IMG/VR virus record: IMGVR_UViG_3300045988_095445 | From: a virus | Reading direction: 5' to 3' (one strand) | DNA length: 15,026 nucleotides | Shown: one piece after another, positions 581 to 10,925 of the stretch | Numbering within the stretch: position 1 is the first letter of the stretch | How the letters are laid out: each line of letters starts with the position of its first letter | Notes under the pieces: generated by a model | What the model was told of the DNA's origin: nothing | The model's input: the letters and a program-made list of their open reading frames with translations, nothing else | The model's database searches: none | Translations under genes and position numbers: made by a program

Positions 581-671
581 GGGTGCCGATCGGGTCTAGA
601 TACGAACCATCACAACACTTGTCACAACGATCGTAAACCTAGCCTTCCGCGATTATAATATATATAAAAAA

Positions 672-697
672 GGAGAGAAGCTACAATACTTCTCTCC
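672..697 (-). terminator. Intrinsic terminator of gene 717-1172 (GGAGAGAAG-loop-CTTCTCTCC followed by a T-run on the - strand).
   Basis: 9-bp stem followed by TTTTTTATATAT on the minus strand. Confidence 0.7.
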
Positions 698-716
698 TTT
701 AATCTTTTTCCTCTTG

Positions 717-1172
717 TTACTTTAAATGCTTCAAAAACTCCATAATACTATCTTCATCAGACTTAGTATTACCCTTAACCTGAGGCACACTCTTTGCGAG
801 AGCATCAGAAATAGAGTCAACAGCAATGTCAATTACTTCATCAAGACTCTTTGCATTGACTACTCGAGCGGAAGTCTTAGCAGTTACAGTCATAGCCTGC
901 ATAAACTGCTTAATATCATTTGCTGTCCACTTAGGATTGCTCTTGCTATAAACCAGCGCAGCTACACGACCAACGTCATCCTCAGTGAGAGACAAATCAT
1001 CAACATTGCCATAAAAAGTAGACTCAATCTCATCCAGAAGAATATCTCGTTCATGGTCTGCGGCGTTAGCCTCGGAGATTCTATTCATAGCATCAGTAAA
1101 TGCCTTTGCAATCTCCTCCTGAGTAGAACCATTCTGCATTGCATCACGAATCATAATCTCATAACTATTCAT
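717..1172 (-). CDS. Hypothetical acidic (D/E-rich) protein, 151 aa.
   Basis: Clean ORF with TAA stop and a downstream terminator. No motif recognised. High negative charge is the basis for the DNA-mimic or anti-restriction suggestion in the findings, which is speculative. Confidence 0.6.
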   Translation of the reverse strand: MNSYEIMIRDAMQNGSTQEEIAKAFTDAMNRISEANAADHERDILLDEIESTFYGNVDDLSLTEDDVGRVAALVYSKSNPKWTANDIKQFMQAMTVTAKTSARVVNAKSLDEVIDIAVDSISDALAKSVPQVKGNTKSDEDSIMEFLKHLK

Positions 1173-1335
1173 AATAAGTTCTTTTAGTTAGAAAAAGCGT
1201 TATGATGCTTCTTAAACTAAAATCCTCCTTTTCTTTATCTTATGTATATATTATATTATATTTTTTATATATTGTCGAACCGATCGGGTCTAGATAAAAA
1301 GATCGCTTTAATGGAATCCCGCGGAAAAGATTTTT

Positions 1336-1712
1336 TCTTTTCAAATAGTTAGCAACATCTTTGCTATTGTTTGCTGTATCTTTAATGGTTTTAATTCTGT
1401 GAATATCACGAAATTTTGAAGAAAACGAGGCATTTTTTGCTTATTTTTAAGTAAATTTGTTAGAAAAAACGCGCATTTTTGCAAGATTTTCATTATATTT
1501 TGCGATAACAAGAGGTAAAAGATCGCGGGCCGATCGGTTTATCTAGCTAAAATCTCTATTTTTGAGCTATTTTTATCATAAAATCGTGTTAAACCGATCG
1601 GTTCCGCGAAAGAAATCTCTGGCCGTATTTGTTTTTCATAGCTATATCTTTGCTATTGCTAGTTGTATTTTAGAAAGTTTTGGTACTGTGAATACTTGAC
1701 AATTTTAAGATT
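1336..1712. repeat. Degenerate ~85-bp direct duplication (copy A about 1336-1425, copy B about 1632-1712) sharing ATCTTTGCTATTG...(41 nt)...TGTGAATA. Copy B carries a plus-strand TTGACA-N16-TATAAA promoter-like site at 1695-1722.
   Basis: Identical 13-mer (1357/1646) and 8-mer (1398/1687) at identical spacing. Confidence 0.6.
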
Positions 1713-1900
1713 TTTATTATAAAAAATTGGACGAGAGAGCCAATATTGTTGGACCGATCGGAACTAGATAAAGGAAGAAAAAAAGTAGGGCCGATCGGTA
1801 TTTGGAAGAGGGCGTTATGAATTTCGGGAAAATCGCTATGAAGTTGCGTTATGGCCAAGTTGCTATGAAAATTTTGCGCTATGGTCCGATCGGGGAAATT

Positions 1901-1972
1901 CGGGCCGAGTCGCCCGCGACCGGCCCGCCCAAAATTTTGCATAAAAAAAATCTCCCCTTATGGGGAGATTTT
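1901..1972 (-). terminator. Double intrinsic terminator: a GC hairpin (1901-1927, CGGGCCG...CGGCCCG) followed by hairpin TCTCCCC-TTAT-GGGGAGA (1951-1969) flanked by A- and T-runs, so it is bidirectional.
   Basis: Perfect stems. Same architecture as the intergenic modules further right. Confidence 0.7.
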
Positions 1973-1975
1973 TCT

Positions 1976-2326
1976 TTAGTTGAGAATTATTGGATATGCC
2001 TTGCGAATAACCACCGTAACCATGGCCGGGGGAGTGTCGCACAAGAAACGGTCATTTCTGATAAAACGACCAATTCCCATATTCTGCCACAAAGTCCGGT
2101 TTACATCCTCGTATCGGAGGGTATTATACTTGGAAAGTTTGATATGCCAATCATAGATAAAGCAACCATCTTCCGGCATGGTGTAATCTGGCGCCCGCTT
2201 ATAATTTCTCGTATGTTCCGCGGCTCTGCGCTCAAGATCATTTGTCGTACCAATCTTGAGAATATAGCGCCCCTTTTTGTCGATGTAATGTCCGACATAT
2301 AGGAACTCTTTTCCTCTTGTCTGCAA
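1976..2326 (-). CDS. GIY-YIG family nuclease, small standalone domain of 116 aa.
   Basis: LYVGHY...YILKIGTTNDLERRAAEH matches GIY-(10)-YIG-(x)-R-x3-E/H, with downstream E and N (YEDVN). The track ORF starts at TTG with no good SD, so the start is uncertain. Confidence 0.65.
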   Translation of the reverse strand: MQTRGKEFLYVGHYIDKKGRYILKIGTTNDLERRAAEHTRNYKRAPDYTMPEDGCFIYDWHIKLSKYNTLRYEDVNRTLWQNMGIGRFIRNDRFLCDTPPAMVTVVIRKAYPIILN

Positions 2327-2351
2327 ACCAACTATAACTTACCTCTTTTCT

Positions 2352-2379
2352 GGTAGGGCCGGGGTAGGCCGACCCTACC
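2352..2379. terminator. GC-rich hairpin GGTAGGG...CCCTACC between gene 2383-2700 and the GIY-YIG gene.
   Basis: 7-bp stem. T-rich on the + side only, so it may act as an attenuator. Confidence 0.35.
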
Positions 2380-2382
2380 CCG

Positions 2383-2700
2383 TTATTTCTTCGGTTTACG
2401 CTTTTGCACAAGCGTCAACTCGAAACTATCCCCACCAATAGAAAACGCAATCTGTCTTTCCTTGTTAGTAATAGACAAGTCAGCGATAGAGAATTGACTG
2501 TTTTTTTCCAAAAACTCTGCCAATTCCGCAATTATACCGCCTTTCGTGGCGTTTGGCTTGCGTTGCCGTGTAGTGAACTTATATGCGGTTGGCTGTTTGC
2601 GCGTTCCAGCATGGGCAAACTTTTGAGCGATTTTCGCCTTTTCTGGCGGTAAATCGTATTCAGTCTTTTTATCAGCCTCTACCGCCTTATCATAGGCCAA
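2383..2700 (-). CDS. Hypothetical basic protein, 105 aa.
   Basis: ORF with TAA stop and SD GAGGAGG upstream. No motif recognised. Confidence 0.55.
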   Translation of the reverse strand: MAYDKAVEADKKTEYDLPPEKAKIAQKFAHAGTRKQPTAYKFTTRQRKPNATKGGIIAELAEFLEKNSQFSIADLSITNKERQIAFSIGGDSFELTLVQKRKPKK

Positions 2701-2805
2701 TAAATCTGCCTCCTCTTCCGGCGTTAATTGCAGGGCTTTATACCTTGCAATCCGTTCAGCGTCACTAATGCGACTGGATATAATATCACCCCCATATTAT
2801 AAGTT

Positions 2806-2830
2806 AGGGCGGGGATTTTCACCCCGCCCT
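2806..2830 (-). terminator. Hairpin AGGGCGGGG-ATTTTCA-CCCCGCCCT. It is nearly identical to the hairpin at 5597-5622.
   Basis: 9-bp perfect stem immediately after the stop of gene 2839-3249. Confidence 0.6.
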
Positions 2831-2838
2831 ATACGGGG

Positions 2839-3249
2839 TTACGCCATCTTAAAGAGGGACTTGCCCTTCTTCTCCGTGCAGACTACTCGACCATCGAATT
2901 TCAACTGCCGCACAAGAGCGGCGACCTTCTGGTTAGAATAGGCCGTCAGATCAGGAATAGCCTTAAAAATTTCCGTGCAGGTCACGCCATCGGTATCGGC
3001 GTCCAGACCAGCCAGATACTCCATAATCTGCTCCTTAAAATTCTCATTCTCCTGCTGGGTGGGAGTCAACTTCTTATCACCGCTGGAGCTATTCTTCTTA
3101 CGCAGAAGCTCCAGCTCATGGTCAATGACAGTAATAGCCACCTCGATGGTAGTGCCATACTTTACCTCGCCGTCAGTCAAGAGGGCCTTAATGTCCTCAA
3201 AACGCTGGGCCTTAGTAGTGCGGATTTTCTTCTCGTCCATAATATACAT
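2839..3249 (-). CDS. Hypothetical protein, 136 aa. It is driven by four tandem promoters.
   Basis: ORF with TAA stop and SD AAAGGA. The C-terminal VTCTEIFKAIPDLTAYSNQKVAALVRQLKFDGRV might be a winged-helix, but that is weak. Confidence 0.6.
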   Translation of the reverse strand: MYIMDEKKIRTTKAQRFEDIKALLTDGEVKYGTTIEVAITVIDHELELLRKKNSSSGDKKLTPTQQENENFKEQIMEYLAGLDADTDGVTCTEIFKAIPDLTAYSNQKVAALVRQLKFDGRVVCTEKKGKSLFKMA

Positions 3250-3283
3250 CCTTTCTGGTTTTTAGGACTGTCCTTGTCCTTTG

Positions 3284-3490
3284 ATTATATTGTACCACAC
3301 TATTTGGTACTTGTCAAGAGGTTTTTCAAACTTTTTTCAAGAACTTTTGCTCTTTACTTGTTTGCCCTCTCAACCTCCCTTATAGTGTAACACACTTTGG
3401 AAAGTTTGTCAAGTCCTTTTTATTTAATTTTCAAGGTACATTGCCTTGTTTTCTGTACCTATTATAGCACATCTTCAAAGGCTTGTCAAG
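3284..3490 (-). promoter_or_regulatory. Three tandem near-consensus sigma-A/sigma-70 promoters on the minus strand, each with extended -10 (TGn).
   Basis: TTGACA-17-TGgTACAAT (3289-3317), TTGACA-17-TGtTACACT (3384-3412) and TTGACA-17-TGcTATAAT (3461-3489). Spacers counted directly. Confidence 0.75.
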
Positions 3491-3560
3491 AGGTTTTTGA
3501 AAGATTTTTGAGAAATTCGCTGTCGCTGTCTGCCGTTCGTTTCTCTCACTTTCTGAATGT

Positions 3561-3760
3561 ATTTTACCACAAGCAAAAGCAGATTGCAAGCGTCAAATTG
3601 CACAAAAATTGGAATTTTGGGAGAAAGTTTTTGTGCAGAATTTTGCACAAAACGGGGCTGAAATTTTTGTGCAACATTTACAAAGAAAAACTCGGGTCGC
3701 GCCGTTCCTGCGCGACCCGCTCAAATTTTGTATAAAAAAAGAAGGGCCGAAGCCCTTCTT
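3561..3760 (-). promoter_or_regulatory. Intergenic module A. On the minus strand it runs: terminator 1 (3741-3758), GC-hairpin terminator 2 (3693-3719), palindrome TTGTGCA-N6-TGCACAA (3631-3650) plus half-sites TTGCACAA (3598) and TTGTGCAA (3666), then promoter TTGCAA-17-TGgTAAAAT (3561-3589).
   Basis: Read directly. Terminator 1 (AAAAGAAGGGCCGAAGCCCTTCTT) is identical to 6509-6531. Confidence 0.7.
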
Positions 3761-3941
3761 AACAGAAAATACAGTTATCCAGAAAATCAAACAGGTGTTC
3801 ATCCTCAATGGGAACATTTACCAGCATATTTCCATCTTCGTCAATATCATCATGACACCATCCTATACGCTCAATAATTTGAATTGCCATGTAAACGGCA
3901 TCTGCACACAGAGAAGAGGTATATACAATTTTTGTTACCAT
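3759..3941 (-). CDS. Small protein, 60 aa (MVTKIVYTSSLCADAVYMAIQIIERIGWCHDDIDEDGNMLVNVPIEDEHLFDFLDNCIFC).
   Basis: The 111-aa track ORF 3759-4094 is a fusion artefact. The real start is ATG 3941, with SD GAGGAGG 6 nt upstream, right after the TAA of the upstream gene. Confidence 0.6.
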   Translation of the reverse strand: MVTKIVYTSSLCADAVYMAIQIIERIGWCHDDIDEDGNMLVNVPIEDEHLFDFLDNCIFC

Positions 3942-3942
3942 T

Positions 3943-4134
3943 TTATTCCTCCTCGAAATCATCAACCCCATATTGTCTCTGATATTCGTCACAGTCAAAC
4001 CATGGCTCACCCAAAGAGCAACAAAGTGATTCCGTGTCAAAATCTGGACAGATAGTATCATAGATTTGTTCTGGATCCATGCCTTCCTCGGCATAATGCG
4101 GGCAACTCCACCGCATACAATGAACCTGAGACAT
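3943..4134 (-). CDS. Small acidic Cys-rich protein, 63 aa (six Cys, possible Zn-binding).
   Basis: ORF with TAA stop and SD AAAGGA. Stop-start adjacent to the 60-aa gene. Confidence 0.55.
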   Translation of the reverse strand: MSQVHCMRWSCPHYAEEGMDPEQIYDTICPDFDTESLCCSLGEPWFDCDEYQRQYGVDDFEEE

Positions 4135-4148
4135 ATTATTTCCTTTCT

Positions 4149-4176
4149 GCCGGGCGGGGCTTTAAGCCCCTACCCG
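4149..4176 (-). terminator. Hairpin CCGGGCGGGGCTT-TAA-AGCCCCTACCCGG.
   Basis: Stem GGGGCT/AGCCCC plus an outer CCGGG/CCCGG pairing, immediately downstream of the exonuclease stop. Confidence 0.5.
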
Positions 4177-4986
4177 GATAGTTGGAATTGAACGCATACT
4201 TGCGGAAAGCTGACGCTGAAAATCTGTCATAGGAGGAAATTCTCTCTTATTCTCATACAGAGCCTTTCTCATGGGCTTATGTTGACGCATACAGTACCAC
4301 ATGATTTCCGCCTCAATGAGAACATCTTCAAGCCCCGTATGACTTTCCTCAAAATCGGTATTTCCAGAGATAAACCGCCACACGATTTCCGCAGTCTTAC
4401 GAGGAACGCCATTGGCCTGGATATATCCATTTTCCTGACAGAATTTCTTATAAGTGGGCATATTGCAGATAACATCTTGTGTCATCTTCATAATGTCCCA
4501 AATTTCCACACTGTCAAACGGGAACCAGTAGCGAAACTTAGAGCAAGTGACCCATCGTTGAATGACCCGCAGAGCGTTATCGTCAAACCGGGCATTATAA
4601 GCAGCCACCTCTTTAATGCCGTATCGCTCGATAGTATCAAGCATAGCCTGCCGGATTTCATAGGTTGTAGCCATCTTACGAGTGCCGGCCCGCAATTCCT
4701 CAACATAGCGGGGGATTTTCCAATTATAATAGGCCGTCCGCATTAAATCCCGCTCGTCATTGAAAATGTCCCGATTTACAAAACTTGCAGTTTCGTAAAT
4801 ATTGCCCTTGGTATCTACTACGGCCCAGCCGCAGTCATATACCAGTACATTTGACATATCCATGCGGACACGCTCAGGAGTGATAATCTCCCCATCTTCC
4901 CCGATTTCAGCGGGAACGGTTTCGGTTAGTGTGTTGGCGGTTTCAGTGTCAACCACCAGCACATAATGTCTGCGTTTATCAATCAT
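4162..4986 (-). CDS. DEDDh-family 3'-5' exonuclease (DnaQ/RNase T-like), 274 aa.
   Basis: Exo I VLVVDTETAN, Exo II VAAYNARFDDNAL and Exo III HTGLEDVLIEAEI (H-x4-D) in canonical order. Confidence 0.75.
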   Translation of the reverse strand: MIDKRRHYVLVVDTETANTLTETVPAEIGEDGEIITPERVRMDMSNVLVYDCGWAVVDTKGNIYETASFVNRDIFNDERDLMRTAYYNWKIPRYVEELRAGTRKMATTYEIRQAMLDTIERYGIKEVAAYNARFDDNALRVIQRWVTCSKFRYWFPFDSVEIWDIMKMTQDVICNMPTYKKFCQENGYIQANGVPRKTAEIVWRFISGNTDFEESHTGLEDVLIEAEIMWYCMRQHKPMRKALYENKREFPPMTDFQRQLSASMRSIPTIRVGA

Positions 4987-5020
4987 AATCTATCAAGTCC
5001 TTTCTTCTCTTGATGGTATT

Positions 5021-5049
5021 ATTATAGCACATTTAAGGCTTGGTGTCAA
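5021..5049 (-). promoter_or_regulatory. Consensus promoter TTGACA-17-TGcTATAAT (minus strand).
   Basis: -35 at 5044-5049 and -10 at 5021-5026, spacer 17. Confidence 0.7.
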
Positions 5050-5211
5050 GAGGAAAAGGAAATTTTGTTGCGATTTATTGCAAGCTACTGGACGATGGAA
5101 TGGCCTATTCCAAAGGCGCTCGCTCGACTTATAACACAAATACCCATTTTCTTCCTTTACTTTCTAAGAGTTCGCGACCTCTTGATTTCTTGGCCTCTCC
5201 CTCCTGACATG

Positions 5212-5380
5212 ATAATAATACCATACTTTTGGGAGAATTGCAAGATGGCAAATTGCACAACTTTTTGCCACCAAAATTGTGCAACATCTACAAAGAAAAA
5301 AATTCGGCGCGCCGCGTGCGTCAGCGCGCCGCTCAAATGACAATAAAAAAATACCCCTCTCATTATTGAGAGGGGTATTT
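5212..5380 (-). promoter_or_regulatory. Intergenic module B: terminator hairpin 5353-5378, GC-hairpin terminator 5305-5331 (identical to 6461-6487), TTGCACAA (5253) and TTGTGCAA (5278), promoter TTGCAA-17-TGgTATTAT (5215-5243).
   Basis: Read directly. Confidence 0.7.
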
Positions 5381-5581
5381 TTAATATCCAATATATTCCC
5401 TGTTGATTAGTTCATCTATTCCGTATACCAGATCATCAAGAGAGATAGGAAAGTCATCATCAATTTCATTATCTTCCATATTCCTGCTAATCTGGCTTAT
5501 GAGGATTGACGCATCTCTCAAGGCTTTTTTCTCTATCGAACCGAGAACAAGCCTATTAACTTTCCGAATTTCCATTTGCAA
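5381..5581 (-). CDS. Small acidic protein, 66 aa.
   Basis: ORF with TAA stop. No promoter of its own, so it is probably co-transcribed with the upstream genes. Confidence 0.45.
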   Translation of the reverse strand: MQMEIRKVNRLVLGSIEKKALRDASILISQISRNMEDNEIDDDFPISLDDLVYGIDELINREYIGY

Positions 5582-5596
5582 AACTCCCTTTCTTTG

Positions 5597-5622
5597 CGGG
5601 GCGGGGATTTTAACCCCGCCCT
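5597..5622 (-). terminator. Hairpin GGGCGGGG-ATTTTAA-CCCCGCCC. It is a near-copy of the 2806-2830 hairpin.
   Basis: 8-bp GC stem after the stop of gene 5628-6089. Confidence 0.55.
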
Positions 5623-5627
5623 CTTAC

Positions 5628-6089
5628 TCAGTTTAGATTGTTGATATATTCGATTATGTCTGTCTCTCCTGGATTTATTGTATCTCCTAAATGCCAACCG
5701 TGCCTAATTTTATCATTATCATCAAAAAGGATAAACGGCGGTTCATAGAAACTACGGAATACACATTTGGCTTTGGTCGTTCCGTATGCTACACAATGGC
5801 ATTTATGAGCCGGGAATTTATACCTTGCAAGCCATTCCTTTTTAGCGGCTGTGACTGCTTTCTTATATTCGGGAGTGCTTTCGGGCGGTAGCCATGTAAT
5901 TACTCTAATTTCCCATCCGTTATTGATTGCCTTTAGAAGCGCATTTCTAAGAGCTTCCATGTCCCACATAGGGGCCGCGTCTCGGAATGGGGTGGGGTCT
6001 CCATTGCGGAGTTTTTCGAGCCAATTAGGGACTGCATACAAGTCCGCGATAGTTCCATCCATGTCAAAGCAGAGCATTTTTTTAGTCAT
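5628..6089 (-). CDS. HAD-superfamily hydrolase, probably a 5'(3')-deoxyribonucleotidase-like (NT5C family) nucleotidase, 153 aa.
   Basis: Motif I FDMDGTIAD (DxDGT), Ser/Thr motif (VITW), Lys (KKEW) and motif IV FDDND. The start overlaps the upstream gene end. Confidence 0.6.
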   Translation of the reverse strand: MTKKMLCFDMDGTIADLYAVPNWLEKLRNGDPTPFRDAAPMWDMEALRNALLKAINNGWEIRVITWLPPESTPEYKKAVTAAKKEWLARYKFPAHKCHCVAYGTTKAKCVFRSFYEPPFILFDDNDKIRHGWHLGDTINPGETDIIEYINNLN

Positions 6090-6095
6090 TGTATA

Positions 6096-6344
6096 TCAAT
6101 CTCCTTTTGTTTTATTATACCACTTGTTGCCTACCTTGTCAACAAGTTTTTCAAAAAAAGTTTTACGCCGACATACCTTATAAGGTATTGACATATAATC
6201 TACATAGATCAGAGGATCTTGTAAAAGCACAGTCTGTATATAAATCTCATAATTAACCGGGGTAGTAGTATGCCCGAATTGTCTATGATAAATTTCAGCT
6301 ACGGTTAAGTATTCGTTAGGCTGAATAAACTTTGAAGGTTTCAT
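6096..6344 (-). CDS. Hypothetical protein, 82 aa. Its 3' end encodes the promoter and SD for the HAD gene.
   Basis: Strong SD GGAGGGG. TGA stop 6 nt before the HAD ATG. Confidence 0.55.
   Translation of the reverse strand: MKPSKFIQPNEYLTVAEIYHRQFGHTTTPVNYEIYIQTVLLQDPLIYVDYMSIPYKVCRRKTFFEKLVDKVGNKWYNKTKGD
6114..6142 (-). promoter_or_regulatory. Consensus promoter TTGACA-17-TGgTATAAT embedded inside the coding sequence of gene 6096-6344. It drives the HAD gene.
   Basis: -35 at 6137-6142, -10 at 6114-6119, spacer 17. Confidence 0.55.
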
Positions 6345-6371
6345 TTAGTATCCCCTCCTTTTTCTGTACTA

Positions 6372-6531
6372 ATAATACCATAATTTAAGGATAATTGCAA
6401 GATGGCAAATTGCACAAGATTTCAAGACAAAAATTGTGTAGAACTTACAAATAAGAAAACTCGGCGCGCCGCGTGCGTCAGCGCGCCGTCGAATTTTTAG
6501 TATATAAAAAAGAAGGGCCGAAGCCCTTCTT
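6372..6531 (-). promoter_or_regulatory. Intergenic module C: terminator 6512-6529 (same as 3741-3758), GC hairpin 6461-6487 (same as 5305-5331), TTGCACAA (6409), TTGTGTAG (6433), promoter TTGCAA-17-TGgTATTAT (6372-6400).
   Basis: Read directly. Confidence 0.7.
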
Positions 6532-6990
6532 TTATCTTTCAGCCATATTTGAAAAATACCTTGCGACTAGTTTAACCATTTCATGAATAGATTCATCATT
6601 GTGCAAATTTTTGTAACAAATGAATCCAATTTGTCCACCATCAGAAAAAATGGGAGTAATAAACATAGATTTCCACGCTGTCGCAGGTTGGCTGATATTA
6701 CTCCATTCATCTGGTGGTATAGAAATTTTGAAAGAACTAGGCCCGCTTAAAAGTTTATCTGAATCGAAGATTGCCGCGGAAATGTGATTAACAGAAAGGG
6801 CATTTCGCATTTCGTGGGCATGGTCAACGAAAAAAGATAGTGGAGAATATTTCTTGAAGGCTATACAGTCGCCATCAAGAAAAATTTCCATAGGGTCGCC
6901 TTCTCTAATTCGCATACTCCTACGAATTTCTCTAGGAATAACAATACGCCCTAGGTCATCAATATGTCGAACAATACCAACAGCTCTCAT
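6532..6990 (-). CDS. spoVT: SpoVT/AbrB-family regulator. It has an N-terminal swapped-hairpin DNA-binding domain and a SpoVT-like (GAF-type) C-terminal domain, 152 aa.
   Basis: GIVRHIDDLGRIVIPREIRRSMRIREGDPMEIFLDGDCIAFKKYSPLS is near-identical in pattern to B. subtilis SpoVT (GIVRRIDDLGRVVIPKEIRRTLRIREGDPLEIFVD...KKYSPIS). The C-terminal ...PIFSDGGQIGFICY...LVARYFSNMAE resembles SpoVT ...PIVANGDPIGAVVIF...FLARQME. Confidence 0.85.
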   Translation of the reverse strand: MRAVGIVRHIDDLGRIVIPREIRRSMRIREGDPMEIFLDGDCIAFKKYSPLSFFVDHAHEMRNALSVNHISAAIFDSDKLLSGPSSFKISIPPDEWSNISQPATAWKSMFITPIFSDGGQIGFICYKNLHNDESIHEMVKLVARYFSNMAER

Positions 6991-6999
6991 TTTTTTATC

Positions 7000-7033
7000 G
7001 CGGGAGCATAGAATACAAGTCCTATACTCCCGC
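7000..7033 (-). terminator. Weak hairpin GCGGGAG-N20-CTCCCGC between genes 7045-7443 and 6532-6990. It is possibly an attenuator.
   Basis: 7-bp stem with a long loop. No promoter lies between the two genes. Confidence 0.3.
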
Positions 7034-7044
7034 GCCTCCTTTCC

Positions 7045-7443
7045 TTAAAGCGATTTCCGCAGTTCGTCTAGTAGAGTAGACAGAGTTTTCATATCGCCGC
7101 CCATTTCCAGCTTGACACAAATCAGGCTTGCATTTTCCTCTACCCACTTTGTCACAGTGGACAGCTCTTCATCCATCGTTTGATTGATGGGGTTGTAAAG
7201 ACTGCACATATTTGACTTGGCGCACTCCGGGTCATAATAGCGGCGGAGCTTATATCCCTTTGCCGTGGCGCGCTCAATAATCTTTGTATTCAGCGCCTCA
7301 ATCTCTTTCCGGCCTTCCTCGATAAAATCCTCAAACTCTTTCATAGCTCCCGCATACTTGGCTCGGATTTCCTCTCGTTTGGCGTTCGCAATCTTGTTGA
7401 CCTCGTCATTGATATAGGCTTCAATCCTCTTAGTAACACGCAT
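7045..7443 (-). CDS. Hypothetical protein, 132 aa.
   Basis: ORF with TAA stop and the promoter just upstream. Confidence 0.55.
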   Translation of the reverse strand: MRVTKRIEAYINDEVNKIANAKREEIRAKYAGAMKEFEDFIEEGRKEIEALNTKIIERATAKGYKLRRYYDPECAKSNMCSLYNPINQTMDEELSTVTKWVEENASLICVKLEMGGDMKTLSTLLDELRKSL

Positions 7444-7501
7444 TTCTAAAACTCCCTTTCTTATTTTAATTTATTTTTGGGGCTGCCCCTTCCATAGTCT
7501 T

Positions 7502-7530
7502 ATTGTACCACAGAAGGGGCAATTTGTCAA
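7502..7530 (-). promoter_or_regulatory. Promoter TTGACA-17-TGgTACAAT.
   Basis: -35 at 7525-7530, -10 at 7502-7507. Confidence 0.7.
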
Positions 7531-7537
7531 CCCCTTT

Positions 7538-7768
7538 TTACAAGGAAAGTAAATCCATCATAGTCATTTCATCAACCGCCTTATCGGCTTCCTCATCGAA
7601 AATACCCTTGATAATATCGGCCGCGTCATCGGGAGTACATATGCCGATCCGCAGGAATTTCCCCAAAGACTGGAGCATTGCCTGTGCTGCTTCTCCTGGG
7701 CAGAACTCCTCCATGGTCTTATGCAGAAGAATAATCCCCTGTCTATCCTGCTCAGTCATTCTATACAT
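7538..7768 (-). CDS. Hypothetical acidic protein, 76 aa.
   Basis: ORF with TAA stop. Confidence 0.5.
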   Translation of the reverse strand: MYRMTEQDRQGIILLHKTMEEFCPGEAAQAMLQSLGKFLRIGICTPDDAADIIKGIFDEEADKAVDEMTMMDLLSL

Positions 7769-7819
7769 AGCAATATTTCCTTTCTGGTTTAATGAGTTTT
7801 CCTTCTCTTTACATTATTG

Positions 7820-7848
7820 ATTATACCACTGTTTAAGCGGTTTGTCAA
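7820..7848 (-). promoter_or_regulatory. Promoter TTGACA-17-TGgTATAAT.
   Basis: -35 at 7843-7848, -10 at 7820-7825. Confidence 0.7.
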
Positions 7849-7852
7849 CCCT

Positions 7853-7990
7853 TTACATCAAATTTTTTGCCAAATATGCGAACATTAGAATTTCTGCGGC
7901 AAACATGATTTCAAGCCGAATACAGCCTTTTTGAGCAGCCGCCATTAACTGCCATGCAAGGCAGGCCACAAACGCAATCAAAACAATCAT
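7853..7990 (-). CDS. Possible 45-aa hydrophobic peptide (MIVLIAFVACLAWQLMAAAQKGCIRLEIMFAAEILMFAYLAKNLM).
   Basis: ORF below the track cutoff. The SD is 22 nt from the ATG and the ORF lies between a terminator and the next promoter, so it may not be expressed. Confidence 0.2.
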   Translation of the reverse strand: MIVLIAFVACLAWQLMAAAQKGCIRLEIMFAAEILMFAYLAKNLM

Positions 7991-8023
7991 TGTGAAGGTA
8001 GTTATATATATACTCCTTTTCTG

Positions 8024-8050
8024 GTTAAGAGGGTTTATACCCTCTTAACC
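8024..8050 (-). terminator. Hairpin GGTTAAGAGGG-TTTATA-CCCTCTTAACC overlapping the stop of gene 8035-8268.
   Basis: 11-bp perfect stem with the TAA stop in the loop. Confidence 0.55.
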
Positions 8051-8268
8051 TCGATAATCTCCATATCGAAATCTTCCCAATATGCGCCCATGAGAAGGTC
8101 ATGCCGCAAGTCCCCTTCATTCTCATAGTCCATATCTTCCAGAATTTGGCTCCACTCGCTTTCGGAATACTGGGCCTTGAGCCAGTCCCATCCCGCATGG
8201 CGTGCGCCAGTTTCAGTATCAGAAACGCCGATAATCTTTTCTCTACTGTCAGCCATTACCAGATACAT
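8035..8268 (-). CDS. Hypothetical acidic Trp-rich protein, 77 aa.
   Basis: ORF with SD AAAAGGAGA and TAA stop. Confidence 0.55.
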   Translation of the reverse strand: MYLVMADSREKIIGVSDTETGARHAGWDWLKAQYSESEWSQILEDMDYENEGDLRHDLLMGAYWEDFDMEIIEVKRV

Positions 8269-8321
8269 AACTCATTCTCCTTTTGTTTCGAGGGCTTTTG
8301 TTCTCCCCTCTTGATGATACA

Positions 8322-8505
8322 AGTATAACAGATAGCAGATAGAAAGTCAAGCAATTTTGGGAAAAAATCTTCCGTCAGATTGCACAACAATTCGAGCCTA
8401 AAATTGTGCAAATTGCCTCTTGATAAAAAATTCCGGCCGCGCCTGTGGTGCACGGCCGGGCGAACGAATAAAAAAAAAGAACCTCCTGAATTTCAGGAGG
8501 TCATT
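8322..8505 (-). promoter_or_regulatory. Intergenic module D: terminator 8481-8504 (ACCTCCTGA-ATT-TCAGGAGGT), GC hairpin 8433-8459, TTGTGCAA (8404), TTGCACAA (8380), promoter TTGACT-17-TGtTATACT (8322-8350).
   Basis: Read directly. Confidence 0.7.
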
Positions 8506-8543
8506 AATTTCTGCATACCAACAACTTCCTTTCTTTTGAGAAG

Positions 8544-8777
8544 TCAATCGGCATTTTCAACAATCTTTAATCCGTTTGCTTGGATAATTTTCATAGCTTC
8601 TTCAAGCGAGGAATCAACCGATCCGCAGTCGATACAGATATATTTTCTGCCATCTTTTACCATAGTAGTAAAATAGTATTCTTGGCCAGAAACAAGGCCC
8701 ATCTACTCTCGCAGTCTTACTGGAATCATGATACGCCCACTTGAATCTAATTTCCTTGAGAAAGTAGTTTCTTGCAT
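8544..8777 (-). pseudogene. AbrB-fold (swapped-hairpin) gene with one in-frame TAG at 8703-8705. It is either an amber-recoded gene (one 77-residue protein) or a nonsense pseudogene.
   Basis: MQETTFSRKLDSSGRIMIPVRLRE-[TAG]-MGLVSGQEYYFTTMVKDGRKYICID... aligns colinearly with AbrB RKVDELGRVVIPIELRR-T-LGIAEKDALEIYVDD, with the TAG occupying one residue position. There is no SD upstream of the ATG. Stop is TGA at 8544. Confidence 0.55.
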
Positions 8778-9014
8778 TTTGATAAATAAATTCTAGTGAC
8801 CTAGGCTCGTGCGAAAAACGACTCCATCACGGGAATCGCCGATTTAGAACAATCGGAAGGAACATTTACCACTCGCAAGGCATTTTCTGGCAGAACTGAG
8901 ACATAGGGCAATTTTACAAGAATCCTAGTTCAAACAGAACTCTAAAATAACCGCGAGTGCTTTCAGCACTTCTAAGGTCATTAGAAAAACTCCTTTCTTT
9001 ATTTTTCTATAATT

Positions 9015-9043
9015 ATTATAATATATTTTTTTGAAAAAATCAA
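9015..9043 (-). promoter_or_regulatory. Promoter TTGATT-17-TATAAT, followed by SD AAAGGAG and an 18-aa ORF (8923-8979) containing hairpin GAAGTGC-TGAAA-GCACTTC, then about 200 nt untranslated.
   Basis: -35 at 9038-9043, -10 at 9015-9020. Leader-peptide-like arrangement upstream of the AbrB-like gene. Confidence 0.45.
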
Positions 9044-9182
9044 TAGGGCCGGCATTACGCCAGCCCTAATCTCTGTAACCAAACCAGATGGTATTTACCA
9101 ATGTGAAGTAGAACTGTGCCATATCCCTTATTTGTCCAAACAGTGGAACCGATAGGATATGTATGCGGTAAACGCTCAATAC

Positions 9183-9398
9183 TCACTTTAGTTCCACCTC
9201 CTCGAAAGCTCCAATTTTTAGCAGATAATTATATAAGGCTCTATCTTGTTTGTCGCCGGTATTAAAATCAAGAGTACGAACACAGCCGGTAACATTGGAA
9301 TTAAGAGGATGATTCAAACACCAACCAGCCATATTACAAATTGTGTCTCCAAACTCCGCAGATTTTTCTACACTTTCAAATTTAATAACAGCAATCAT
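9183..9398 (-). CDS. Hypothetical protein, 71 aa.
   Basis: Strong SD AAAGGAGGAAT. TGA stop. Confidence 0.55.
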   Translation of the reverse strand: MIAVIKFESVEKSAEFGDTICNMAGWCLNHPLNSNVTGCVRTLDFNTGDKQDRALYNYLLKIGAFEEVELK

Positions 9399-9421
9399 AT
9401 TTATTCCTCCTTTTTATCATG

Positions 9422-9450
9422 GGGAGTGGAGGTTTGTGGCCTCCACTCCC
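9422..9450 (-). terminator. Hairpin GGGAGTGGAGG-TTTGTGG-CCTCCACTCCC between co-oriented genes. It may act as an attenuator.
   Basis: 11-bp stem. The next gene's SD follows immediately with no promoter. Confidence 0.5.
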
Positions 9451-9460
9451 GCAAGTTTTC

Positions 9461-9700
9461 TTAATCATCTACATAAATGATTAAATTGTTATCTCTTGCC
9501 TCAATGCCGGTTACCTGAAGTCCTAGAACCCATTCCTTAGATATCTCGATTACGTCTCCTCCCAGAGTTATTCTACCATCAGGTAATTCATGGTAATGAG
9601 CTTGGGTATTCTTATTGATAATTTCAAATCCCTCCCCGTCAAAGAACATAGTATCTTCTGCAAGCGGAGAAAGTAACCAAGCAACCATATCTAAAGTCAT
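9461..9700 (-). CDS. Hypothetical acidic protein, 79 aa.
   Basis: ORF with SD AAAGGAAG and TAA stop. Confidence 0.55.
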   Translation of the reverse strand: MTLDMVAWLLSPLAEDTMFFDGEGFEIINKNTQAHYHELPDGRITLGGDVIEISKEWVLGLQVTGIEARDNNLIIYVDD

Positions 9701-9754
9701 TTTTTTTACTTCCTTTCAAATTCTTTTTGTGGCCTGTCCCTTTGGACAAGTATA

Positions 9755-9955
9755 TAATAACACATGGCAAAAGGAATGTCAAGTAATTTCGGGAGAAAAA
9801 CTTTCGTCGAATTGCACAGACTTTCGGTCATATAATTGTTGAAATTGCCGAATAAATAAAAATTCGGGCCGCGGCGCACGCTGGCGGCCCGGCGAAAAGT
9901 CAATATGGAAAAGTGCATAAAAATGACTGGCAATCTTTGTGTAGATTGCCAGTCA
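9755..9955 (-). promoter_or_regulatory. Intergenic module E: terminator 9925-9953 (11-bp stem), GC hairpin 9865-9891, TTGCACAG (9812), promoter TTGACA-17-TGtTATTAT (9755-9783).
   Basis: Read directly. Confidence 0.7.
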
Positions 9956-9967
9956 AGTATTATTCCT

Positions 9968-10201
9968 TTACAGCTCCATGGTTTCCATGAGATAGCCCGT
10001 GCCCATCGGCACCTCCCGCAGATTGCTGGGACTTATACGCAACTTATATTTCCTATTGATTTTATTCGCCGCACTTGTCTTATCTCTCGCTTGGACAATT
10101 ACTGGTATATGGAGTTTATTTAGAGTGGGCTTATTAAGACTGAAATATCCCATCTCTCTGCGCTTGCGGCCCATGGCGTCGATATAAGTCCCTCTATACA
10201 T
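9968..10201 (-). CDS. Hypothetical basic protein, 77 aa.
   Basis: SD GGAGG 5 nt before the ATG. TAA stop followed by a terminator. Confidence 0.55.
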   Translation of the reverse strand: MYRGTYIDAMGRKRREMGYFSLNKPTLNKLHIPVIVQARDKTSAANKINRKYKLRISPSNLREVPMGTGYLMETMEL

Positions 10202-10212
10202 TTTTCCTCCTA

Positions 10213-10359
10213 TTATTTAGTCATGAGAACGAACATATTATATTCGCTGTGCTGTGGGTTTGGCTCACAGTTATCTGCCACTATATCAGCCCAACTAAGA
10301 ACTGTCCAGAGTAGGAGAGCGGCACAAATGCCGCCTCCTATCCGCTTAATAATTCTCAT
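10213..10359 (-). CDS. Small membrane or secreted peptide, 48 aa (MRIIKRIGGGICAALLLWTVLSWADIVADNCEPNPQHSEYNMFVLMTK).
   Basis: Its ATG overlaps the TGA of the upstream gene (ATGA). The N-terminal hydrophobic segment suggests a membrane location. It is below the track cutoff. Confidence 0.4.
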   Translation of the reverse strand: MRIIKRIGGGICAALLLWTVLSWADIVADNCEPNPQHSEYNMFVLMTK

Positions 10360-10658
10360 TTCCATTTCTTTGCCTCCTGTTCTTTAACCCATTCAGTACC
10401 GATTGTATCTCCGACCATAGCAACCTTATATTCGTCTTCGCTTACAATTCTGGTATGCAGATTGCTATTGATAAACTTTCTATTGATATAAGCCCAGTGT
10501 GGCATATAGGCCACTCGCATGGCATTAAAAGCATCCAGGTCTAAGATGATGCCGTCCTCTACCTCTGCGGAACGCACATTCATCTTATACCGCAAAAGTT
10601 TAATAAATTCACGCTTTCTAAAAGTAGGCCCAACGAACCATTTAATATAATTGTTCAT
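10356..10658 (-). CDS. Hypothetical protein, 100 aa.
   Basis: ORF with SD GGGGAGAAAGGA and TGA stop. Confidence 0.55.
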   Translation of the reverse strand: MNNYIKWFVGPTFRKREFIKLLRYKMNVRSAEVEDGIILDLDAFNAMRVAYMPHWAYINRKFINSNLHTRIVSEDEYKVAMVGDTIGTEWVKEQEAKKWK

Positions 10659-10704
10659 AGTCTTTTATCCTTTCTCCCCGTATAGCCGTTAGGTCAGCTT
10701 CTTT

Positions 10705-10851
10705 TTAATCTACGATTTCTCCACTGGATAAATCCACAATCCAATGATTAGGATTGACTATCTCGTGACTGACCTTCCATCTTGCCATTGAAAGGGTGGA
10801 TGGTTCATAATAGCGCATTTTCTCATTGGCTAAAACTTGTAACTGATACAT
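10705..10851 (-). CDS. Small protein, 48 aa (MYQLQVLANEKMRYYEPSTLSMARWKVSHEIVNPNHWIVDLSSGEIVD).
   Basis: SD AAAGGGG 8 nt upstream. It is the first gene of a four-gene unit. Below the track cutoff. Confidence 0.35.
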   Translation of the reverse strand: MYQLQVLANEKMRYYEPSTLSMARWKVSHEIVNPNHWIVDLSSGEIVD

Positions 10852-10880
10852 ATAGTATGCCCCTTTCTTTTAATTATTAT

Positions 10881-10917
10881 AACCCTGCCTTGCCTTGTGT
10901 TTTGCAAGGCAGGGTTT
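10881..10917 (-). terminator. Hairpin AACCCTGCCTTGC-N-GCAAGGCAGGGTT.
   Basis: 13-bp stem after the stop of gene 10926-11300. Confidence 0.65.
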
Positions 10918-10925
10918 ATAAACTG

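What the first reader, a model, noticed from the sequence alone, without database searches (positions are those of the whole stretch)
1901..9891. GC-rich hairpins with compensatory (covarying) stems inside conserved flanks
Five copies of the second hairpin sit between conserved flanks: AAAA(C/T)TCGG on one side and C(T/C)CAAAT...ATAAAAAAA on the other. The copies are at 1901-1927, 3693-3719, 5305-5331 (= 6461-6487), 8433-8459 and 9865-9891.

Their stem sequences differ, yet each forms a perfect 7-10 bp stem: CGGGCCG/CGGCCCG, CGGGTCGCGC/GCGCGACCCG, CGGCGCGC/GCGCGCCG, CCGGCCG/CGGCCGG and CGGGCCGC/GCGGCCCG. Each has an 11-13 nt loop.

A conserved structure with a divergent sequence implies selection on the fold. 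The simplest role is a second intrinsic terminator, since a U-run follows on the minus strand. The unusually large loops and strict flank conservation leave room for a protein-binding or RNA-processing site.
Basis: seen in the sequence. Interest (0 to 1): 0.55.

Follow-up and report, generated by a model that had tools for sequence, protein, structure and literature searches.

The report
Conserved 27-nt hairpin heading phage early-operon cassettes
Six copies of a very stable 27-base hairpin, kept through compensating mutations in about 220 copies in related gut phages, begin a roughly 110-base terminator-plus-promoter cassette between early operons; it most likely works as a back-up transcription stop, but its fixed geometry suggests something also reads it specifically.

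Summary
The window holds six copies, five of them distinct, all exactly 27 nt and all on the minus (gene) strand. Shuffled sequence gives none.

A covariance model built from them finds 179 more hits in 39 related sequences, plus 44 in more distant phage contigs. Every hit lies on the gene strand. In whole IMG/VR contigs, exact-pattern matches fall only in the ~20-kb early region.

- **Covariation:** it is strong. 93% of cells pair, against 71.5% when shuffled, and no shuffle in 500 reaches the observed value. Pairs 2, 4, 5 and 8 swap freely, while pairs 1, 3, 6 and 7 never change.
- **Folding strand:** G·T outnumbers A·C 36 to 6 on the gene strand, so the sense strand folds, most plausibly as RNA.
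- **Context:** each window copy sits 11-51 nt (family-wide range) after a canonical terminator. It is followed by A-R-T-T-T, two inverted TTGCACAA/TTGTGCAA boxes, and a TnTCCCRAAA motif 71-72 nt from the hairpin base, then a sigma-70-type promoter.

"Second terminator" fits five of the six window copies. It does not explain the invariant bases, the fixed length and spacing, the U-poor c1 type, or relatives in which promoters abut the hairpin.

The closest known analogue is the PeSL terminator/promoter cassette of T4-like phages. I rate it a new variant of a known kind, of moderate interest.

The parts
1896..1927 (-). Hairpin c1 (1901-1927, CGGGCCGGTCGCGGGCGACTCGGCCCG) plus AATTT tail. It has no U-run and abuts CCGATCGG.
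   Evidence: 50.9 bits. The fold gives a 7-bp outer stem, a bulged U and a 4-bp inner stem. The identical 27-mer occurs in 20 aligned copies across clades.
3688..3719 (-). Hairpin c2 (3693-3719, 10-bp stem, 7-nt loop) plus AGTTT(TTC) tail.
   Evidence: 59.3 bits.
5300..5331 (-). Hairpin c3 (5305-5331) plus AATTT(TTTT) tail. Its 27-mer is identical to c4.
   Evidence: The L001 orthologue, with the same flanks, differs at 10 of 27 positions, which indicates short-patch conversion.
6457..6488 (-). Hairpin c4 (6462-6488) plus AGTTT(TC) tail.
   Evidence: 57.3 bits.
8428..8459 (-). Hairpin c5 (8433-8459, CCGGCCGTGC/GCGCGGCCGG with one G·U) plus AATTT(TTT) tail.
   Evidence: 50.6 bits.
9860..9891 (-). 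Hairpin c6 (9865-9891, 8-bp stem plus 2 inner pairs) plus AATTT(TT) tail.
   Evidence: 55.7 bits.
1946..1973 (-). Primary terminator T1 preceding c1 on the gene strand. It is bidirectional: A-run, hairpin, T-run.
3739..3760 (-). Primary terminator T1 preceding c2.
5347..5382 (-). Primary terminator T1 preceding c3.
6510..6531 (-). Primary terminator T1 preceding c4. It has the same sequence as the one before c2.
   Evidence: Sequence; fold.
8480..8502 (-). Primary terminator T1 preceding c5.
9924..9955 (-). Primary terminator T1 preceding c6.
1822..1831 (-). TnTCCCRAAA motif, 72 nt after the c1 hairpin base.
   Evidence: The family-wide position is +70 to +72 in 120 of 126 contexts.
3615..3624 (-). 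TnTCCCRAAA motif, 71 nt after c2.
5227..5236 (-). TnTCCCRAAA motif, 71 nt after c3. It lies in the spacer of the promoter TTGCAA-17-TATTAT (about 5243-5215).
6384..6393 (-). Motif variant TATCCTTAAA, 71 nt after c4. It lies in the spacer of promoter 6400-6372.
8355..8364 (-). TnTCCCRAAA motif, 71 nt after c5, just upstream of promoter 8350-8322.
9787..9796 (-). TnTCCCRAAA motif, 71 nt after c6, just upstream of promoter 9782-9754.
3598..3674 (-). Four TTGCACAA/TTGTGCAA boxes downstream of c2 (3667-3674, 3643-3650, 3631-3637, 3598-3605), followed by promoter TTGCAA-17-TAAAAT (3589-3561).
5253..5284 (-). Inverted boxes TTGCACAA (5277-5284) and TTGTGCAA (5253-5260), starts 24 bp apart, downstream of c3.
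6410..6441 (-). Box pair downstream of c4: degenerate CTACACAA (about 6434-6441) and TTGTGCAA (6410-6417).
8380..8411 (-). Inverted boxes TTGCACAA (8404-8411) and TTGTGCAA (8380-8387) downstream of c5.
9812..9843 (-). Box pair downstream of c6: TTCAACAA (9836-9843) and CTGTGCAA (9812-9819).

Best explanation
**What it is.** The hairpin is the first element of a conserved cassette of about 110 bp that marks the boundary between early operons of a TAG-recoding gut phage. The order on the gene strand is:
1. primary terminator T1;
2. a variable spacer;
3. the 27-nt hairpin;
4. A-R-U-U-U(U);
5. two inverted TTGCACAA/TTGTGCAA boxes;
6. TnTCCCRAAA;
7. a sigma-70-type promoter.

**How it most likely works.** It folds in the sense transcript as a very stable RNA hairpin of about -20 kcal/mol. 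In the window's lineage it most likely acts as a back-up intrinsic terminator, or insulator. It would stop polymerases that read through T1 before they run into the operator and promoter of the next operon.

**How it is inherited.** It travels with that promoter as one unit. The repeated cassettes also serve as junctions where gene modules are inserted, deleted or converted, as with PeSLs.

**Shown and inferred.**
- Shown: the fold is under selection, it is strand-specific, and it belongs to the downstream cassette.
- Inferred: that it causes termination or insulation.
- Open: the invariant base pairs and the exact spacing imply an additional specific reader that I could not identify.
For: **Structure under selection.**
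- 93.1% of cells pair against 71.5% shuffled, with 179 cells changed on both sides against 62, and 0 of 500 shuffles as high.
- RNAalifold recovers only this helix in the 135-nt unit.

**The sense strand folds.**
- All 179 + 44 model hits lie on the gene strand.
- G·T outnumbers A·C 36 to 6 in pairs 1-9. G·T occurs in old multi-copy families, A·C in singletons.

**Terminator-like features.**
- 95 of 126 distinct contexts have a canonical terminator within 80 nt upstream and the boxes downstream.
- Four window copies top the terminator scan.
- TTT after the stem is invariant. In the window's class, 64 of 85 contexts have at least 5 T in 9 nt.
- Mean hairpin energy is -19.7 kcal/mol, against -16.5 for T1.

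**It belongs to the promoter cassette.** The distance to T1 varies from 11 to 51 nt. The distance to the box is 18-22 nt and to TnTCCCRAAA 70-72 nt, in 120 of 126 contexts.

**Restricted to the early module.** An exact-pattern scan of all IMG/VR places copies only in the ~20-kb early region of contigs of 80-180 kb.

**Recombination junctions.**
- A module of about 0.9 kb in L004, L005 and L027 is bounded by two hairpins, exactly at c1.
- c3 was converted to the c4 sequence.
- Alignment break-points within 15 nt of a hairpin number 117, against 45 expected.

**Precedent.** The stem-loops of PeSLs are documented terminators or attenuators inside early-promoter cassettes (PMC2839356).
Against: - A canonical T1 is almost always present, so a second terminator is redundant.
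- The stem is separated from the Ts by a conserved A-R. Outside the window's class only three Ts are conserved.
- The c1 type has no U-run, yet it is the most conserved copy.
- Termination does not need a fixed 27-nt length, with a rare 37-nt variant.
- Termination does not need invariant C1:G27, G3:C25, C6:G22 and G7:C21 while neighbouring pairs swap freely. Nor does it need a loop biased to R-CG-NN-CG.
- Termination does not need a distance to TnTCCCRAAA held to within one base even when the interior is rearranged.
- In 18 contexts, and in all three phAss-1 copies, a consensus promoter ends 2-4 nt before the hairpin (10-17 nt in two more distant copies). In 16 contexts an antisense promoter ends 7-8 nt after it. 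A simple terminator would be pointless there.
- There are no expression data.
Confidence: 0.42

Rival explanations
1. The hairpin is a specific recognition site. The folded sense strand, as RNA or as an extruded or non-template DNA hairpin, would be bound by a phage (or host) factor that controls the early cassette. Candidates are a shut-off or antitermination factor, a processing nuclease, or a regulator bridging the hairpin base and the TnTCCCRAAA motif.
For: - Pairs 1, 3, 6 and 7 are invariant among 92 distinct sequences, while pairs 2, 4 and 5 swap C:G, G:C and U:A freely.
- The loop is biased to R-CG-NN-CG, with a possible bulged purine and a C:G-closed tetraloop.
- The A-R-T-T-T flank is invariant.
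- The length is quantised at 27 nt, rarely 37.
- The distance from the hairpin's 3' base to TnTCCCRAAA is 70-72 nt in 120 of 126 contexts. This is tighter than the hairpin-to-box distance, and it holds for 37-nt variants and in phAss-1.
- The c1 type lacks a U-run but is identical across clades.
Against: - No candidate reader was identified. The early proteins are ORFans apart from an AbrB/MazE-like protein and a T5orf172 protein.
- The loop sequence is not strictly conserved: 37 different loops occur among 55 hairpins.
- Invariance could partly reflect common descent of the cassettes.
- A specific role does not exclude termination.
Confidence: 0.25
2. The hairpin is a 5'-terminal stabilising hairpin. 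It would be the first structure of transcripts that start at a promoter ending a few bases away. Being a near-palindrome, it would serve either strand, protecting the RNA from 5' decay. On this view the window's copies are relics or have been re-used.
For: - 18 of 126 contexts have TTGACA-17-TATAAT ending 2-4 nt before the hairpin.
- 16 of 126 have an antisense consensus promoter ending 7-8 nt after it.
- Distant clades and phAss-1 show face-to-face promoters around the hairpin.
- 5' hairpins are established mRNA stabilisers in Firmicutes (general knowledge).
Against: - None of the six window copies has a recognisable promoter ending upstream.
- 55 of 126 contexts have no promoter element next to the hairpin, yet the hairpin is conserved and covaries there.
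- With a 2-nt gap, the predicted start lies 4-5 nt inside the 5' arm, which would truncate the stem.
- Wobble asymmetry favours the sense strand only.
Confidence: 0.12
3. The hairpin is a recombination site or mobile palindromic unit. It would be the cross-over point, site-specific or through palindrome-driven template switching, by which cassette-plus-gene modules move. This resembles PeSL exchange or integron attC sites, where structure is conserved and sequence is free.
For: - A 0.9-kb indel is bounded exactly by two hairpins.
- c3 was converted to c4 with the flanks untouched.
- Break-points are enriched near hairpins.
- A conserved unit at 11655-11752 has the same downstream motif at about the same distance but no hairpin.
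Against: - No recombinase, HUH or RAYT-type gene was seen in the window.
- Orthologous hairpins are stable, not hypervariable.
- The break-point enrichment is crude, because alignments tend to end in intergenic DNA anyway.
- This does not explain the sense-strand wobble bias or the fixed spacing to the promoter motif.
Confidence: 0.08
4. The hairpin is an N4/LUZ7-type hairpin promoter. A phage RNA polymerase would recognise the extruded DNA hairpin and start at the conserved G/A/R, 13-15 nt from the hairpin centre.
For: - It sits where a promoter is expected: after a terminator, co-oriented with the genes, and only in the early region.
- The conserved purines at +1 and +2 lie 14-15 nt from the hairpin centre. 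This matches the geometry reported for LUZ7 early and middle hairpin promoters (PMC9163698).
- A GC-rich palindrome in AT-rich flanks favours extrusion (general knowledge).
Against: - The stem and loop (8-10 bp, 7 nt) are far larger than the N4 type (at least 4-7 bp, 3-nt loop).
- G·T on the sense strand means A·C mismatches on the template-strand hairpin, which is the strand N4 polymerase reads.
- The region is saturated with perfect sigma-70-type promoters on the gene strand.
- No phage RNA polymerase is known in the phAss-1 group: the paper does not mention one and the GenBank annotation is uninformative.
Confidence: 0.05

Closest known systems
PeSL (promoter-early stem-loop) cassettes of T4-like phages (Arbiol et al. 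2010, PMC2839356; Comeau et al. 2014, PMC4122927)
   Same: - Both are repeated intergenic motifs of about 100 bp that combine a GC-rich stem-loop with a sigma-70-type early promoter.
- Both are clustered in a plastic early region full of ORFans.
- In both, the stem-loop is read as a terminator or attenuator for upstream transcription.
- In both, cassettes coincide with indel or replacement junctions between close relatives.
   Different: - The phage lineage and host are unrelated: a TAG-recoding phage, probably of Clostridia.
- PeSL stems are short G-run/C-run hairpins placed inside or over the promoter. Here a fixed 27-nt hairpin lies 60 nt upstream of the -35, after a separate canonical terminator.
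- This hairpin has invariant base pairs, an A-R-T-T-T flank and an exact 70-72-nt spacing to a further motif.
- The resemblance is analogy, not homology.
Intrinsic (Rho-independent) terminators, including tandem terminators
   Same: Both have a GC-rich sense-strand hairpin followed by Ts, downstream of an operon end. Five of the six window copies pass a simple terminator scan or nearly do.
   Different: - A conserved 2-nt A-R spacer precedes the Ts, and only three Ts are invariant.
- The geometry is fixed and some pairs are invariant, unlike the neighbouring ordinary terminators (16-38 nt).
- The c1 type lacks a U-run.
Hairpin promoters of N4-like phages (N4, LUZ7; PMC9163698)
   Same: Both are structure-conserved, sequence-variable hairpins at the head of early transcription units. 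A purine lies about 14 nt from the hairpin centre.
   Different: - The stem and loop are much larger.
- The wobble pattern favours the non-template/sense strand.
- Host-type promoters are present.
- No virion RNA polymerase has been identified.
Host-takeover module of SPO1-like phages (many strong early promoters and terminators around small ORFan genes; my own knowledge, mentioned in PMC7414437 and PMC10531801)
   Same: Both are dense arrays of small early genes, each unit with consensus sigma-A promoters and terminators, near a genome end. The exonuclease in the window has 38% identity to large Enterococcus phages.
   Different: No comparable fixed hairpin family is described there. The covariance model finds nothing convincing in Enterococcus phage H1.
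REP/BIME extragenic palindromes and integron attC sites
   Same: All are extragenic, GC-rich imperfect palindromes after genes. Structure is conserved while sequence varies, and attC sites are associated with cassette exchange.
   Different: - It is not a host repeat. The genome scan gave multi-copy hits only on ~148-kb phage-like contigs.
- There is no GTAG or R/L core boxes.
- No RAYT or integrase gene was seen.
- The length is fixed.

Membership tests
Intrinsic terminator | Stable GC-rich hairpin on the transcribed (sense) strand | tested here: met
   (mean -19.7 kcal/mol). All copies lie on the gene strand.
Intrinsic terminator | U-tract beginning 0-2 nt after the stem, with at least about 5 U in 8 | tested here: inconclusive
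   The feature is met for c2-c5 and nearly for c6, but not for c1. Across the family only TTT after a conserved A-R is invariant. T counts in the first 8 nt are 3 (17 contexts), 4 (47), 5 (40) and 6 (22).
Intrinsic terminator | RNA 3' ends or termination demonstrated | not testable with these tools
   No transcript data are available.
PeSL-type composite terminator/promoter cassette | A stem-loop and a sigma-70-like early promoter in one conserved intergenic motif, repeated in a plastic early region | tested here: met
PeSL-type composite terminator/promoter cassette | Cassettes coincide with insertion, deletion or replacement junctions between close relatives | tested here: met
   indel bounded by two hairpins; conversion; 117 against 45 break-points within 15 nt; a crude control.
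PeSL-type composite terminator/promoter cassette | Stem-loop placed between -35 and -10, or over the -10, of its promoter; T4-like phage lineage | tested here: not met
   The hairpin lies about 60 nt upstream of the -35. Only -35-like remnants lie 5-8 nt away, in 37 of 126 contexts. The phage belongs to the code-15 clade. It is therefore an analogue, not a member.
N4-type hairpin promoter | Short hairpin (about 5-7 bp stem, 3-nt loop) read on the template strand by a phage RNA polymerase | tested here: not met
   The stem is 8-10 bp and the loop 7 nt. Wobble asymmetry favours the sense strand. The presence of a phage RNA polymerase could not be tested.
5'-terminal mRNA stabiliser hairpin | Hairpin within a few nt of a transcription start | tested here: not met
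   No promoter ends upstream of any window copy. The feature is met in 18 + 16 of 126 contexts in relatives and in phAss-1.
REP/BIME-like host repeat | Many copies in a bacterial chromosome, with a conserved GTAG-type flank | tested here: not met
   single chance-like hits in high-GC genomes. Multi-copy hits occur only on ~148-kb phage-like contigs.
Any curated Rfam family | Score at or above the gathering threshold | tested here: not met
   nothing reaches its threshold. The best overlapping hits have E-values of 0.4-0.9.
RNase III processing site of phage early RNA (T7, SP82 type) | About two helical turns of dsRNA, usually with an internal loop | tested here: not met
   At most 10-11 bp. 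Cleavage itself is not testable.

The most novel reading that the evidence does not exclude
The 27-nt hairpin and the TnTCCCRAAA motif, held exactly 70-72 nt apart, would be the two halves of a dedicated control element. A so-far unidentified phage factor would read the folded sense strand (RNA or extruded DNA) together with the motif. It would switch a whole set of early operons on or off, or start or anti-terminate their transcription. This would be a new structure-specific regulatory system in TAG-recoding Clostridia phages.
Probability: 0.22. Interest if true: 0.75.

Novelty: new variant of a known kind. Interest (0 to 1): 0.5.

Why it matters
- **Annotation.** The hairpin gives a sequence and structure signature, plus a working covariance model, for the boundaries of early operons in a large, uncultured clade of TAG-recoding gut phages. 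This covers contigs of 80-180 kb and relatives of phAss-1, where almost every early gene is an ORFan.
- **Generality of the PeSL design.** If the hairpin is only an insulating terminator, PeSL-like terminator/promoter cassettes have arisen independently in Firmicute phages and again sit at module-shuffling junctions.
- **A possible new regulatory input.** If the invariant pairs and the exact spacing reflect a specific reader, this is a handle on how these phages time or shut off early transcription, which is currently unknown.
- **A practical part.** The hairpin is also a compact and very stable element that could be tested as a terminator or insulator in Gram-positive synthetic biology.

Tried and rejected
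- **Rfam.** An E-value scan of the window found no family near its threshold.
- **GenBank phages.** Megablast of the whole window found no match.
- **A larger structured RNA.** RNAalifold on the 135-nt unit from 30 diverse copies predicts only the 27-nt helix.
  - A closing stem between the 5' flank and TnTCCCRAAA was rejected because the register differs between copies.
  - The TTGCACAA/TTGTGCAA boxes as an RNA stem were rejected because mismatches in c4 and c6 are not compensated.
- **Hypervariable or diversified hairpin.** Orthologous hairpins are 96-98% identical where their flanks are 87-97% identical.
- **Cruciform extrusion restoring a 17-bp promoter spacer.** Where a -35 lies 6-7 nt from the hairpin, no -10 appears at the required place in the sequences inspected.
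- **Host REP-like repeat or CRISPR-repeat mimic.** The genome scan shows no arrays and no host multi-copy family.
- **Presence in cultured relatives.** Enterococcus phage H1 has no convincing copy. phAss-1 has three diverged copies with the same architecture.
- **Looking for a phage RNA polymerase or a candidate reader.** Pfam and PHROGs hits on the early proteins give only MazE/AbrB-like, T5orf172 and FolD matches. The phAss-1 GenBank annotation is almost entirely "hypothetical".
- **Literature.** Papers on SP82 RNase III sites gave no usable sequence detail.

Full report
**Setting**

From about 700 to 11,700 the window carries small genes on the minus strand. They have many consensus or near-consensus sigma-70-type promoters (TTGACA-17-TATAAT, often with TG) and hairpin/T-run terminators on that strand.

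Most proteins have no family. The exceptions are:
- a MazE/AbrB-like protein;
- a T5orf172-domain protein;
- a FolD-like protein;
- an exonuclease with 30-38% identity to large Enterococcus phages and to gut phage phAss-1.

A plus-strand ORF from 14455 has seven in-frame stops, all TAG. phAss-1 is classified in the "Caudoviricetes code 15 clade" and its host is predicted to be a member of the Clostridia. The window is therefore the early, standard-code region of a TAG-recoding phage of a Firmicute.

**Checking the observation**

The hairpins are at 1901-1927, 3693-3719, 5305-5331, 6462-6488, 8433-8459 and 9865-9891. All are exactly 27 nt.
- A pattern with only the shared positions (CSGNNCG-N13-CGNNCSG-ARTTT) matches six times, always on the minus strand. 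It matched 0 times in 200 shuffles.
- GC-rich hairpins with stems of at least 7 bp number 8, against 0.05 per shuffle.
- Folded as minus-strand RNA together with the preceding terminator, each region has a z-score between -4.7 and -8.5.
- On that strand, G·U pairs lengthen four stems to 10 bp with 7-nt loops.
- Rfam has no family for this element, and the window has no megablast match in GenBank phages.

**Relatives and covariation**

The exonuclease retrieved 28 IMG/VR loci, with 36-99% amino-acid identity, from contigs that mostly range from 55 to 164 kb.

A covariance model built from the six window copies gave 179 hits in 39 sequences, every one on the gene strand. It gave 44 more in other contigs found by pattern.

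On the 150-row alignment (92 distinct rows, 56 distinct 27-mers):
- 93.1% of cells pair, against 71.5% in shuffles.
- 179 cells show a change on both sides, against 62 expected, with 0 of 500 shuffles as high.
- Sliding the 3' partners drops pairing to 31-42%.
- Pairs 2, 4, 5 and 8 alternate among C:G, G:C, U:A and A:U with almost no unpaired cells.
- Pairs 1, 3, 6 and 7 are C:G, G:C, C:G and G:C in 90-92 of 92 rows.
- The loop is biased to R-CG-NN-CG. The 3' flank is A-R-T-T-T with TTT invariant, and the 5' flank is T-S-R-G.

In pairs 1-9, G·T occurs 36 times and A·C 6 times on the gene strand. The G·T pairs sit in old, multi-copy families and the A·C pairs in singletons. So it is the sense strand that must fold. 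RNA is the simplest reading. A non-template DNA hairpin, or a mutational bias, cannot be excluded.

Orthologous hairpins are as conserved as their flanks or more so. There is one exception: window c3 now carries the c4 sequence, while its L001 orthologue, with identical flanks, differs at 10 of 27 positions. That is a short conversion tract.

**Anatomy of the surroundings**

Among 126 distinct contexts, 95 have a canonical terminator (T1) within 80 nt upstream and TTGCACAA/TTGTGCAA boxes downstream.

| Measure | Value |
|---|---|
| T1 hairpin length | 16-38 nt |
| T1 to the 27-nt hairpin | 11-51 nt |
| Hairpin end to first box | 18-22 nt |
| Box start to box start | 23-25 nt |
| Hairpin 3' base to TnTCCCRAAA | 70-72 nt in 120 of 126 contexts |

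All six window copies keep the last distance. So do the rare 37-nt variants and phAss-1.

In most cassettes the TnTCCCRAAA motif lies in the spacer of a sigma-70-type promoter, with the -35 at about +61 and the -10 at about +84. In others it lies just upstream of the -35.

The hairpin therefore belongs to the downstream promoter cassette, not to the upstream terminator. RNAalifold on the whole 135-nt unit finds no further conserved structure, so the interior is best read as DNA-level regulatory sequence.

An exact-pattern scan of all IMG/VR places copies only within the ~20-kb early region of whole contigs. A scan of 185,579 species genomes finds multi-copy hits only on ~148-kb phage-like contigs binned with Oscillospiraceae and Eubacterium MAGs.

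**Features that complicate the terminator reading**

- In the window's class the tail is T-rich: 64 of 85 contexts have at least 5 T in 9 nt.
- The c1 type, which abuts a CCGATCGG palindrome, has only 3-4 T. It is nevertheless the most conserved hairpin.
- In 18 contexts a 12/12 or near-consensus promoter ends 2-4 nt before the hairpin.
- In 16 contexts an antisense promoter, complete with box, -35 and TG-extended -10, ends 7-8 nt after it.
- A further 37 contexts keep only a -35-like hexamer 5-8 nt away.
- Distant clades and phAss-1 show face-to-face promoters around the hairpin.
- The six window copies have no such promoter upstream.

**Interpretation**

I commit to the following reading. 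The hairpin is the head of a composite terminator/promoter cassette. In the window it acts as a back-up intrinsic terminator, or insulator, for read-through from T1.

Where a promoter abuts it, transcripts would start inside or at the edge of the stem. They would either escape termination or gain a 5' hairpin. This step is inference.

The invariant pairs, the A-R spacer, the fixed length and the ±1-nt spacing to TnTCCCRAAA are not explained by termination. They are the basis for the main rival, a specific reader of the folded strand.

**Role in genome plasticity**

- L004, L005 and L027 carry an extra module of about 0.9 kb inserted exactly at c1 and bounded by two hairpins.
- The number and spacing of hairpins differ between close relatives (listing).
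- Alignment break-points within 15 nt of a hairpin number 117, against 45 expected, with a maximum of 65 in 200 randomisations. This control is crude, because alignments tend to end in intergenic DNA.

The pattern matches the behaviour described for PeSLs in T4-like phages. Their stem-loops were shown to terminate transcription, and their cassettes mediate modular shuffling (PMC2839356 and PMC4122927). PeSL stems lie inside the promoter and the phages are unrelated, so this is an analogue, not a member.

N4/LUZ7 hairpin promoters (PMC9163698) share the idea of a structure-defined element at the head of early units, and a purine about 14 nt from the hairpin centre. The size of the stem and loop, the strand bias and the abundance of host-type promoters argue against that reading.

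**Verdict**

This is a real, strongly covarying and previously uncatalogued hairpin family. The "second terminator" reading is plausible for the window but incomplete for the family. I rate it a new variant of a known kind, with moderate interest (0.5).

Noticed in passing
window 1-166: Five copies of a 27-nt direct repeat (ATTTCATGGTATTCTGACAATACTATG) lie at the left end of the window. They could be iterons or a terminal or packaging region.
   Followed up: partly
window 585-1897: Seven CCGATCGG palindromes lie in a largely non-coding stretch of about 1.3 kb (only the 717-1172 gene lies in it). Several are followed by (G)TCTAGATA or ATCTAG. The c1 hairpin abuts the last one, and the same junction is conserved across clades.
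   Followed up: partly
window 3289-3600 (minus strand): Four tandem near-consensus sigma-70-type promoters sit upstream of the 136-aa gene 2839-3249, whose C-terminus looks winged-helix-like. The same tandem array is present in L010.
   Followed up: partly
window 3598-3674, 5253-5284, 6410-6441, 8380-8411, 9812-9843: Inverted TTGCACAA / TTGTGCAA boxes, starts 24 bp apart, lie 18-22 nt downstream of each non-c1 hairpin. They are probably an operator. Mismatches are not compensated, so they are not an RNA stem.
   Followed up: partly
window 1822-1831, 3615-3624, 5227-5236, 6384-6393, 8355-8364, 9787-9796: A TnTCCCRAAA motif lies exactly 70-72 nt from the hairpin's 3' base in 120 of 126 contexts, whatever lies in between. 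The reason for this spacing is unexplained.
   Followed up: partly
window 11655-11752 (minus strand): A conserved unit after terminator 11754-11780 carries the same TTTTTCCCAAAAT motif at about the same distance but no hairpin. It is 75-80% identical across distant clades and overlaps a doubtful 103-aa ORF.
   Followed up: partly
window 2352-2382, 2805-2830, 4145-4175, 5595-5620, 7005-7035, 8025-8050, 9420-9450: A different set of GC-rich hairpins without T-runs lies between genes inside the operons. One example, GGGCGGGGATTTTCACCCCGCCC, occurs twice in near-identical form.
   Followed up: no
window 14455-15024 (plus strand): An ORF has seven in-frame stops, all TAG. This indicates TAG recoding in this gene, while the early minus-strand genes use the standard code.
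   Followed up: yes
window 5305-5331 vs 6462-6488; L001 9656-9682: c3 and c4 share an identical 27-mer although their flanks differ. The L001 orthologue of c3 has a different hairpin. This is a short-patch gene conversion confined to the hairpin.
   Followed up: yes
L004 13030-13970, L005 12845-13786, L027 13026-13979: An extra cassette-plus-gene module of about 0.9 kb, relative to the window, is inserted exactly at the c1 hairpin and bounded by two hairpins.
   Followed up: yes
L022 3139-3175, L026 4609-4645, L077 and L093: Rare 37-nt versions of the hairpin, 10 nt longer, keep the A-R-T-T-T tail and the ~71-nt distance to the downstream motif.
   Followed up: partly
L105 (phAss-1, OQ749652) 2930-3150, 5120-5280, 6800-6970: The GenBank phage phAss-1 has three diverged GC-rich hairpins. 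Each sits 2-3 nt after a TTGACA-17-TAAAAT/TATAAT promoter, and two are faced by an antisense promoter. CCCG(C/A) lies at +70 in the two copies checked.
   Followed up: partly
window 11556-11567: A perfect palindrome ACGCGCGCGT lies just upstream of three TTGTGCAA-type boxes, in a cassette that lacks the 27-nt hairpin.
   Followed up: no
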